From assembly GCF_003334785.1 (NCBI RefSeq), contig NZ_QOWV01000076.1: 679 nt of DNA, one strand, 5' to 3'. Every line of letters starts with the position of its first letter. Position 1 is the stretch's first letter. The notes under the pieces were generated by a model. The model had not been told where the DNA came from and searched no databases. It worked only from the letters and a program-made list of their open reading frames with translations. The stretch comes from Escherichia coli. Its GTDB lineage: Bacteria > Pseudomonadota > Gammaproteobacteria > Enterobacterales > Enterobacteriaceae. Below, one piece after another: positions 1-677 of the stretch. Position numbers and translations under genes: made by a program.

Positions 1-136
1 ACTTCCGTCCCAGCCTTGCCAGATGTTGTCTCAGATTCAGATTATGTCGCTCAATGCGCTGAGTGTAACGCTTGCTGATAACGTGCAGCTTTCCCTTCAG
101 GCGTGATTCATACAGCGGCCAGCCATCCGTCATCTA
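1..136 (-). pseudogene. insB: insB 3' segment downstream of the in-frame TAG: open and conserved but separated from the upstream InsB frame; continues beyond the window
   Basis: Same frame as 134..427. Straight after TAG (136..134) comes ATG (133..131), then 43 more open codons to the edge: [44 protein letters not shown]. This matches the recalled InsB C-terminal region, so 1..427 together look like one insB gene interrupted by a single nonsense codon. Confidence 0.7.
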
Positions 137-427
137 TACCACGACCTCAAAGGCCGACAGCAGGCTCAGAAGACGCTCCAGTGTGGCCAGAGTGCGTTCA
201 CCGAAGACGTGCGCCACAACCGTCCTCCGTATCCTGTCATACGCGTAAAACAGCCAGCGCTGACGTGATTTAGCACCGACGTAGCCCCACTGTTCGTCCA
301 TTTCAGCGCAGACAATCACATCACTGCCCGGTTGTATGCGCGAGGTTACCGACTGCGGCCTGATTTTTTTAAGTGACGTAAAACCGTGTTGAGGCCAACG
401 CCCATAATGCGTGCACTGGCGCGACAT
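134..427 (-). CDS. insB: InsB-frame ORF (catalytic part of IS1 InsAB' transposase), ending at a premature in-frame TAG
   Basis: Six-frame ORF 134..427, 97 aa, ATG at 427..425. Translation ...[58 protein letters not shown]...[10 protein letters not shown]... closely matches recalled IS1 InsB over its first ~97 residues. Ends at TAG (136..134) where I recall a Trp codon in reference InsB. Overlaps the insA 3' end in the -1 frame. Confidence 0.85.
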
Positions 428-621
428 CCGACGCCATTCATGGCCATATCAATGATTTTCTGGTGCTTACCGGGCAGAGAGGCGGTGTAAGTGAACTGTA
501 GTTGCCATGTTTTACGGCAAGGAGAGCAGAGATAGCGCTGATGTCCGGCAGTGCTTTTGCCGTTACGCACCACGCCTTCAGTAGCGGAGCAGGAAGGACA
601 TCTGATGGAAATGGAAGCCAC
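346..621 (-). CDS. insA: InsA, IS1 transposition inhibitor and N-terminal part of the InsAB' transposase (zinc-finger plus helix-turn-helix DNA-binding protein)
   Basis: Six-frame ORF 346..621, 91 aa, GTG start at 621..619 and TAA stop at 348..346. Translation [37 protein letters not shown]...[18 protein letters not shown] has the same length and near-identical sequence to recalled IS1 InsA, with Cys8/Cys11/Cys32/Cys35 and a C-terminal HTH-like segment. Preceded by an SD. Confidence 0.9.
364..370 (-). other. Programmed -1 ribosomal frameshift slippery heptamer (A AAA AAA) joining insA to the insB frame
   Basis: Seven consecutive T on the plus strand (364..370) give A7 on the minus strand, 16 nt before the insA stop. 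insA reads CAC UUA AAA AAA UCA; a -1 slip gives ...[11 protein letters not shown]..., which is exactly the 134..427 frame. insA codons begin at coordinates = 0 mod 3 and insB codons at 1 mod 3, as a -1 shift on the minus strand requires. Confidence 0.8.
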
Positions 622-653
622 GCAAGCACCTTAAAATCACCATCATACACTAA
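622..653 (-). promoter_or_regulatory. insA upstream region: candidate -10 TATGAT (647..642) and Shine-Dalgarno AAGGTG (632..627), 5 nt before the GTG start
   Basis: Minus strand reads ...GTGTATGATGGTGATTTTAAGGTGCTTGC-GTG. AAGGTG is well spaced for the GTG at 621..619. TATGAT is a near-consensus -10, but I found no convincing -35 (TGCCAA/CTGCCA at best), consistent with the weak promoter reported inside the IS1 left end. Exact promoter hexamers are uncertain. Confidence 0.45.
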
Positions 654-677
654 ATCAGTAAGTTGGCAGCATTACCG
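654..677 (-). repeat. IS1 left terminal inverted repeat (IRL), element boundary at about 677
   Basis: Minus-strand reading from 677: GGTAATGCTGCCAACTTTACTGAT, matching the recalled IS1 terminal repeat (GGTGATGCTGCCAACTTACTGAT / GGTAATGACTCCAACTTATTGAT) except for one substitution and an apparent extra T. Only 2-3 nt of non-IS sequence follow. Confidence 0.82.

What the first reader, a model, noticed from the sequence alone, without database searches (positions are those of the whole stretch)
1..677. Divergent IS1 isoform rather than the common E. coli IS1 sequence
Compared with the reference IS1 I recall, this copy has many substitutions spread through the element, on the order of one in ten nucleotides. 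In InsA I count roughly nine amino-acid differences (for example I4, R7, E14, P34 inside the second CxxC pair, L49, K52, S68, V79, K86), with the Cys ligands and HTH preserved. InsB shows a similar scatter (HGF for HDF, RIRR for [12 protein letters not shown] for MATLGRLM). Apart from the TAG, the changes are mostly conservative, consistent with a functional but distinct isoform such as those described in Shigella and other Enterobacteriaceae. This may hint at host lineage or horizontal origin.
Basis: partly seen in the sequence, partly recalled or inferred. Interest (0 to 1): 0.3.

Follow-up and report, generated by a model that had tools for sequence, protein, structure and literature searches.

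The report
IS1F: known, disabled E. coli IS1 copy
The window is the well-known IS1F variant of the insertion sequence IS1, the copy beside the ferric-citrate (fec) genes in about half of complete E. coli genomes including K-12, and its transposase gene is broken by a stop codon, so it is ordinary.

Summary
Read on the minus strand, the window is 676 of the 768 bp of an IS1 element. It differs from K-12 IS1A at 70 of 676 positions (89.6% identity, no indels, evenly spread) and has exactly nine InsA substitutions.

The interpretation needs correcting. This is not an exotic isoform. It is IS1F, the "type IV" IS1 of E. coli K-12 (Umeda & Ohtsubo 1991). The window differs from K-12 IS1F at 2 bases and from the best-matching E. 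coli chromosomal copies at 1 base. It is the copy next to ykiE/fecI, a junction present in 2,599 of 5,426 complete E. coli genomes.

The in-frame TAG (window 134-136) is a stable feature of that copy. It is the insB7 pseudogene in K-12, and RefSeq annotates it "internal stop". IS1F does not move on its own in K-12 but can be mobilised in trans.

The isoform diverged under purifying selection (dN/dS about 0.1). The changes this copy has acquired since then all alter protein: H34P, W98*, A6C to A7 (N86K) and Q49L. The A7 allele is a minority (361 records against 3,580 for A6C). L49 was found nowhere else.

Already known; low interest.

The parts
677..679 (-). Three bases of host flank ('TTC' on the element strand) just outside IRL
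   Evidence: Identical to the flank of the fec-linked IS1F in K-12 (…GGGGATTTC|GGTAATG) and in E2865. Three bases alone are weak evidence (1 in 64 by chance).
654..676 (-). Left terminal inverted repeat (IRL) of IS1F, GGTAATGCTGCCAACTTACTGAT
   Evidence: Identical to K-12 IS1F and one mismatch to IS1A (GGTGATG…). The 23-bp length of the IR is from general knowledge of IS1. PMC12903888 notes that the IS1F IRs differ from those of IS1A-E.
346..621 (-). insA, an intact 91-codon ORF with a GTG start, encoding the Zn-finger/HTH InsA repressor
   Evidence: ORF. Pfam Zn_ribbon_InsA (1.6e-18) and HTH_Tnp_IS1 (4.2e-25) match. Nine substitutions against IS1A InsA and two against K-12 InsA7.
520..522 (-). 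InsA codon 34, CCT (Pro), inside the second CxxC pair; His (CAY) in IS1A and in uninterrupted IS1F-type copies
   Evidence: Alignments A1 and A2. The P34 81-mer is exact in 1,521 E. coli records and the H34 IS1F-type 81-mer in 2,955.
475..477 (-). InsA codon 49, CTG (Leu). The base at window 476 is private to this window; all relatives have CAG or CAA (Gln).
   Evidence: It is the only mismatch to the best genome hits. There are 0 exact 81-mer matches in 20,395 E. coli records. The exact InsA protein is absent from a collection of about 15 billion proteins.
364..370 (-). -1 frameshift slippery heptamer, here A_AAA_AAA instead of the canonical IS1 A_AAA_AAC
   Evidence: Sequence. K-12 IS1F, IS1A and the intact IS1F-type copies have A6C. 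The A7 81-mer is exact in 361 records and A6C in 3,580. The change gives N86K in InsA and L22I in the insB frame.
137..427 (-). insB reading frame (-1 relative to insA), codons 1-97, holding the N-terminal part of the DDE_Tnp_IS1 domain
   Evidence: ORF 134..427. Pfam DDE_Tnp_IS1 8.4e-58 on the conceptual InsAB'. NCBIfam NF033558 transpos_IS1 scores 240.5 bits against a cut-off of 100.
134..136 (-). In-frame amber stop TAG replacing Trp98 of the insB frame (residue 163 of the 232-residue InsAB')
   Evidence: Shared with K-12 insB7 (b4576, pseudogene) and with the fec-linked copies annotated 'internal stop'. The TAG 81-mer is exact in 2,738 records and TGG in 2,308.
1..133 (-). Remainder of the insB frame after the stop (codons 99-142); the window ends before the last 25 codons and IRR
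   Evidence: Against IS1A this stretch has 12 synonymous and 0 nonsynonymous changes, so it was under constraint until recently.

Best explanation
The window is a copy of IS1F, the long-known roughly 10%-divergent 'type IV' isoform of IS1. It is almost certainly the copy fixed next to ykiE/fecI at the edge of the ferric-citrate (fec) locus of E. coli.

It is a non-autonomous, decaying element:
- IRL is intact.
- insA is an open 91-codon gene, so an InsA-type repressor that binds the IRs can probably still be made.
- The -1 frameshift heptamer is still slippery, as A_AAA_AAA rather than A_AAA_AAC.
- The insB frame is closed by an amber codon at Trp98. The frameshift product therefore stops at 162 of 232 residues and lacks the C-terminal half of the DDE_Tnp_IS1 catalytic domain.

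The element cannot move itself. It can be moved in trans by transposase from another IS1, as shown for K-12 IS1F.

Shown here: the identity, locus, alleles and their frequencies, and the selection pattern. Taken from the literature: immobility and mobilisation in trans. Inferred: that InsA is made and active despite H34P, Q49L and N86K; that the truncated fusion is catalytically dead; and that the window comes from the fec locus, since only 3 flank bases are visible.
For: - The window is 99.9% identical over all 679 bases (one mismatch) to its 30 best chromosomal matches, all annotated 'IS1-like element IS1F family transposase'. The four copies with the TAG allele that were opened all lie beside fecI/ykiE.
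- It has 2 mismatches in 676 to K-12 IS1F at 4518472-4519239, which is annotated insA7 plus the insB7 pseudogene.
- My count of 73 mismatches (90.49%) between K-12 IS1F and IS1A equals the published figure (PMC12428005).
- The ykiE-flank/IRL junction is present in 2,603 records from 2,599 of 5,426 genomes. The TAG allele is in 2,738 records.
- Family membership: Pfam Zn_ribbon_InsA, HTH_Tnp_IS1 and DDE_Tnp_IS1, and NCBIfam NF033558.
- dN/dS against IS1A is 0.125 for insA and 0.081 for insB, with 12 synonymous and 0 nonsynonymous changes after the stop.
- The four changes derived relative to intact IS1F-type copies all alter protein. Fisher p is 0.006-0.023 against the deep divergence.
- Uninterrupted IS1F-type copies exist: E2865 at 1.347 Mb with a 'programmed frameshift' CDS (WP_223409538.1), and a S. 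dysenteriae plasmid copy.
- IS1F does not transpose natively but accounted for 44% of events when InsAB' was over-produced (PMC12428005, PMC12903888).
Against: - Only 3 flank bases are visible, so the fec location of this particular copy is inferred from allele sharing (TAG + P34 + A7), not seen.
- The window is the whole 679-base source, so it may be a short or collapsed repeat contig. The private base at 476 could then be an assembly or sequencing error.
- IRR lies outside the window, so the integrity of the right end is unknown.
- Expression or activity of InsA from this copy was not tested.
- I could not retrieve the primary paper on the catalytic D-D-E residues (Ohta et al. 2002). That the truncation removes catalytic residues rests on the domain extent (62 residues of the domain remain, Pfam match starting at residue 102 against a 131-position model) and on my recollection.
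Confidence: 0.93

Rival explanations
1. One reading: a functional, autonomous IS1 isoform of the Shigella/other-Enterobacteriaceae type, in which the TAG is a sequencing error or is read through, so that full-length InsAB' is made.
For: - Intact IS1F-type copies 99.1-99.3% identical to the window exist in E. coli and on S. dysenteriae, S. boydii and S. flexneri plasmids.
- The frame after the stop is perfectly conserved at the protein level against IS1A.
- Own knowledge: an amber suppressor host (e.g. supE44/glnV44) would read TAG partly as Gln.
Against: - The TAG is present in K-12, E2865, ML35, 503025 and the K. oxytoca-labelled fec contig, and in 2,738 records in all, so it is not a read error.
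- K-12 IS1F is experimentally immobile on its own (PMC12428005).
- This copy also carries H34P inside a CxxC pair, which the uninterrupted copies lack.
Confidence: 0.04
2. The window is a collapsed or consensus repeat contig from a draft assembly. It would mix several IS1F-type copies, so its allele combination (A7 + TAG + P34 + L49) would belong to no single real element.
For: - The source is only 679 bases and begins and ends at or inside the IS, as is typical of repeat contigs.
- The L49 base is seen nowhere else.
Against: Apart from the single base at 476, the exact combination A7 + TAG + P34 exists as one real element in at least 30 complete genomes. No chimera is needed to explain it.
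Confidence: 0.03

Closest known systems
IS1F of E. coli K-12 (type IV IS1; insA7 b4294 / insB7 b4576 pseudogene; Umeda & Ohtsubo 1991, Gene 98:1, as cited in PMC12903888)
   Same: The window is 99.7% identical (2 differences in 676 nt). It shares the IRL, the P34 and K52 residues and the amber stop at insB codon 98. The three flank bases are the same as at the ykiE/fecI junction.
   Different: The window has A_AAA_AAA instead of A_AAA_AAC at the frameshift site, a state shared with 361 E. coli records such as O26 and O103 STEC. It also has a private Q49L change in InsA.
Fec-linked IS1F copies of E. coli E2865, ML35 and others (RefSeq 'IS1-like element IS1F family transposase; programmed frameshift; internal stop')
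   Same: They are 678/679 identical to the window and include the A7, TAG and P34 alleles.
   Different: Only the base at window 476 differs (Leu49 in the window, Gln49 in these copies).
Uninterrupted IS1F-type elements (E. coli E2865 at 1,347,467-1,348,164, WP_223409538.1; S. dysenteriae ATCC 9753 plasmid, WP_094106546.1)
   Same: They are 99.1-99.3% identical to the window, with the same IRL and the same isoform-wide substitutions I4, R7, E15, S69 and V80.
   Different: They have TGG at insB codon 98, H34 and A6C, and are annotated as complete transposase genes with a programmed frameshift.
Canonical IS1 (IS1A/IS1E of K-12, the 'consensus' IS1)
   Same: Same 768-bp architecture with no indels: IRs, insA, an A-run frameshift site, and insB in the -1 frame. 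The same Pfam domains match.
   Different: It has 70 of 676 nucleotide differences, 9 InsA substitutions and an intact insB, and it is the only type that transposes regularly in K-12 (PMC12428005).

Membership tests
IS1 family insertion sequence | Terminal inverted repeat of IS1 type (GGTRATG…) at the element end | tested here: met
   IRL at window 654-676 is identical to K-12 IS1F and 1 mismatch from IS1A. IRR lies outside the window and was not seen.
IS1 family insertion sequence | insA encoding a Zn-ribbon plus HTH DNA-binding protein | tested here: met
   Pfam Zn_ribbon_InsA 1.6e-18 and HTH_Tnp_IS1 4.2e-25. The four Cys residues are present.
IS1 family insertion sequence | insB in the -1 frame encoding the DDE_Tnp_IS1 catalytic domain, joined to insA by a slippery A-run | tested here: met
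   DDE_Tnp_IS1 8.4e-58 on the conceptual fusion. NF033558 transpos_IS1 scores 240.5 bits against a cut-off of 100. The heptamer A_AAA_AAA is at window 364-370.
IS1 family insertion sequence | Uninterrupted transposase reading frame (an autonomous element) | tested here: not met
   TAG at insB codon 98 (window 134-136). It is therefore a member by descent but a pseudogene copy.
IS1F isoform (K-12 type IV) | About 90.5% identity to consensus IS1 and near-identity to the K-12 IS1F sequence | tested here: met
   89.64% to IS1A and 99.70% to K-12 IS1F. RefSeq labels the best hits 'IS1F family'.
IS1F isoform (K-12 type IV) | Location next to ykiE/fecI at the edge of the fec locus | tested here: inconclusive
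   Only 3 flank bases are visible and they match. The window's allele combination A7+TAG+P34 was seen in E2865's fec-linked copy, and all four TAG-bearing copies whose context was opened lie beside fecI/ykiE.
IS1F isoform (K-12 type IV) | No mobility on its own, but mobilisable in trans | not testable with these tools
   Reported for K-12 BW25113 in PMC12428005 and PMC12903888. Not tested for this A7/L49 variant.

The most novel reading that the evidence does not exclude
The C-to-A change that turns the IS1 slippery site A_AAA_AAC into A_AAA_AAA, in a copy whose insB is already closed by an amber codon, is not neutral decay. It would raise frameshifting or transcriptional slippage, so the fec-linked IS1F would make more of a 162-residue InsA-B' truncated fusion. 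That fusion keeps the Zn-finger and HTH but lacks the catalytic half, and would act as a domesticated trans-inhibitor of other IS1 copies in the lineages that carry it (361 records, including O26 and O103 STEC).
Probability: 0.04. Interest if true: 0.4.

Novelty: already known. Interest (0 to 1): 0.08.

Why it matters
It matters little. The window is a textbook element, annotated in K-12 and in thousands of genomes.

- As a practical point, the fec-linked IS1F and its alleles (TAG, P34, A7 or A6C) are vertically inherited markers that could help place a strain within E. coli.
- The amber codon gives a simple reason why IS1F does not move by itself. The two 2025 papers I read describe the cause of immobility of the non-consensus IS1 copies as unknown, and neither mentions a premature stop in IS1F (term searches).

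Tried and rejected
- A scan of species-representative genomes for an IS1F-specific 34-mer, with N at the L49 site, found nothing. It gave no information on taxonomic range, and the plasmid search served instead.
- I first centred the TAG probe on the wrong base and corrected it.
- From alignment A1 I first thought P34 was confined to the TAG-bearing fec copy. The O157:H7 PV15-279 copy has P34 with TGG. That copy has a different stop (TAA at insB codon 45), so I kept only the weaker statement that P34 was absent from the two uninterrupted copies examined.
- I could not retrieve Ohta et al. 2002 on the D-D-E residues, so I do not give their positions.
- Rfam found no RNA family in the window at E-values up to 1.
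- The literature does not give a clear ranking of A_AAA_AAA against A_AAA_AAC. Sharma et al. 2014 call A6C low-efficiency and say A7 is common among IS1/IS3 elements. Atkins et al. 2016 place both well below A_AAA_AAG. I therefore claim only that slipperiness is retained.
- I did not run a metagenome scan for the L49 allele, because the exact-protein look-up had already shown it absent from about 15 billion proteins.

Full report
**What is in the window.**
Read on the minus strand, the window begins with three bases of flank (window 679-677). It continues with an IS1 left inverted repeat (GGTAATGCTGCC…, from window 676) and runs through 676 of the 768 bp of an IS1 element. It contains:
- a 91-codon insA ORF (window 346-621, GTG start);
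- an A-run at window 364-370;
- the insB frame in -1, which is closed by TAG at window 134-136.

The last 92 bp of the element, including IRR, lie beyond the window edge.

I took the reference IS1A from K-12 MG1655 (19796-20563) and compared it base by base.
- There are 70 mismatches in 676 ungapped positions, which is 89.64% identity.
- The mismatches are evenly distributed, at 9.3-11.0% in each of IRL/leader, insA, the overlap and insB (chi-square p=0.94).
- InsA differs at exactly nine residues: V4I, S7R, D15E, H34P, Q49L, T52K, T69S, I80V and N86K.
- The four zinc-ligand cysteines are intact.

**What it is.**
A megablast against 5,426 complete E. coli genomes gave 100% coverage at 99.9% identity to elements that RefSeq names "IS1-like element IS1F family transposase".
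- In E2865, ML35 and 503025 the element lies directly beside ykiE/fecI/fecR/fecA and is annotated "programmed frameshift; internal stop".
- In K-12 MG1655 the same place holds "insertion sequence:IS1F", with insA7 (b4294) and the pseudogene insB7 (b4576).
- The window differs from K-12 IS1F at two bases only.
- My count of 73 mismatches (90.49%) between K-12 IS1F and IS1A equals the figures in PMC12428005 and PMC12903888. Those papers call IS1F the "type IV" IS1 of K-12, citing Umeda & Ohtsubo 1991.
- Pfam (Zn_ribbon_InsA, HTH_Tnp_IS1, DDE_Tnp_IS1) and NCBIfam NF033558 (240.5 bits against a cut-off of 100) confirm IS1-family membership of the conceptual frameshift product.

**How common it is, and where.**
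An 81-mer spanning the ykiE-side flank and IRL is covered in full in 2,603 records from 2,599 of 5,426 genomes. Counts of exact IS1F-type 81-mers in the 20,395 E. coli records are:

| Allele | Records |
|---|---|
| TAG (insB codon 98) | 2,738 |
| TGG (insB codon 98) | 2,308 |
| A6C (frameshift site) | 3,580 |
| A7 (frameshift site) | 361 |
| P34 (InsA) | 1,521 |
| H34, IS1F-type (InsA) | 2,955 |
| L49 (InsA) | 0 |

The amber-bearing copy is therefore essentially the fec-linked copy, carried by about half of complete E. coli genomes. It is not a rarity and not an alternative to "the E. coli IS1".

Among plasmid records, copies at 99% identity or more occur in E. coli, Shigella dysenteriae, S. 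boydii, S. flexneri and a K. oxytoca-labelled 9.5-kb fec fragment.

**Functional state.**
Uninterrupted IS1F-type elements exist. One is in E2865 at 1.347 Mb (CDS with programmed frameshift, WP_223409538.1), 99.26% identical to the window. Another is on a S. dysenteriae plasmid.
- With IS1A as outgroup, the lineage leading to the window has four derived changes relative to these copies: H34P (inside the second CxxC pair), Q49L, C-to-A in the slippery heptamer (N86K in InsA, L22I in the insB frame), and W98-to-amber.
- All four alter protein. One further difference, at element position 471, is synonymous and of ambiguous polarity.
- The deep IS1A-IS1F divergence is overwhelmingly synonymous. 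dN/dS is 0.125 for insA and 0.081 for insB, with 12 synonymous and 0 nonsynonymous changes downstream of the stop.
- The contrast is significant (Fisher p=0.006 to 0.023).

The picture is an isoform that evolved as a working transposon, one copy of which became fixed next to fec and has since been decaying.

The frameshift product would end after 162 of 232 residues, keeping only 62 residues of the DDE_Tnp_IS1 domain (the Pfam match starts at residue 102). That this removes catalytic residues is my inference. I could not retrieve the D-D-E paper.

Experiments agree. In K-12 BW25113, IS1F and the other non-consensus copies essentially do not transpose. When InsAB' was over-produced in a strain lacking IS1A and IS1E, IS1F supplied 44% of the insertions (PMC12428005, PMC12903888). 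In term searches, neither paper mentions a premature stop in IS1F. The K-12 annotation already marks insB7 as a pseudogene.

**The three alleles particular to this window.**
1. A7 at the frameshift site. The heptamer stays slippery. Sharma et al. 2014 (PMC4066793) report that A_AAA_AAG and A_AAA_AAA together make up 72% of heptamers in IS1/IS3-family elements, and they call A_AAA_AAC "of low efficiency". Atkins et al. 2016 (PMC5009743) place both well below A_AAA_AAG. The direction and size of any effect are not established. With insB closed, it cannot restore the transposase.
2. P34. It is absent from the two uninterrupted copies I examined. It is present in the O157:H7 PV15-279 copy, which has TGG at codon 98 but a different stop (TAA at insB codon 45). 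This is only a correlation in a small sample. The mosaic pattern suggests gene conversion among copies.
3. L49. It is not found in any complete E. coli genome, and the exact InsA protein is absent from a collection of about 15 billion proteins. It is a private mutation or an error. The 679-base source may be a short repeat contig.

**Other checks.**
GC content is 52.9% against 53.3% for IS1A, so composition gives no signal of foreign origin. Rfam finds no RNA family. A scan of species-representative genomes with an IS1F-specific 34-mer returned nothing.

**Verdict.**
The element is IS1F, already known and annotated. This copy is a non-autonomous pseudogene copy rather than a functional isoform. 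Interest is low.

Noticed in passing
window 364-370 (minus strand): The programmed-frameshift heptamer is A_AAA_AAA, not the canonical IS1 A_AAA_AAC. This allele is a minority among IS1F-type copies in E. coli (361 records against 3,580), and its best matches include O26 and O103 STEC chromosomes.
   Followed up: partly
window 476 (InsA codon 49, CTG): This is a private base giving Q49L. There is no exact match in 20,395 E. coli records, and the exact protein is absent from about 15 billion proteins. It could be a real private mutation or an error in a short repeat contig.
   Followed up: yes
L009 1000-1767 (E. coli O157:H7 PV15-279) against L005 2000-2767 (E. coli E2865): The same chromosomal insertion site holds an uninterrupted IS1F-type element in E2865 and a pseudogene in O157:H7 (TAA at insB codon 45, plus P34). 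IS1F-type copies have therefore been inactivated independently by different nonsense mutations. The shared P34 and C471 hint at gene conversion between copies.
   Followed up: partly
L008 (NZ_CP069921.1, 'Klebsiella oxytoca' 9.5-kb linear 'plasmid'): This record carries fecI, ykiE and a TAG-bearing IS1F whose right end is replaced by unrelated sequence. Its FecI protein accession (WP_001283626.1) is the one annotated in the E. coli genomes. It looks like an E. coli-type chromosomal fec fragment rather than a true plasmid.
   Followed up: no
window 131-136 (minus strand: TAG ATG): The amber codon is immediately followed by the ATG of Met99, which is also present in IS1A. Re-initiation there would give a C-terminal insB-frame fragment. 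Nothing suggests that this happens.
   Followed up: no
literature (PMC12428005, PMC12903888): Both 2025 papers treat the cause of IS1F immobility as unknown and attribute it to amino-acid changes. Term searches found no mention of a premature stop or pseudogene, although K-12 annotates insB7 as a pseudogene.
   Followed up: partly
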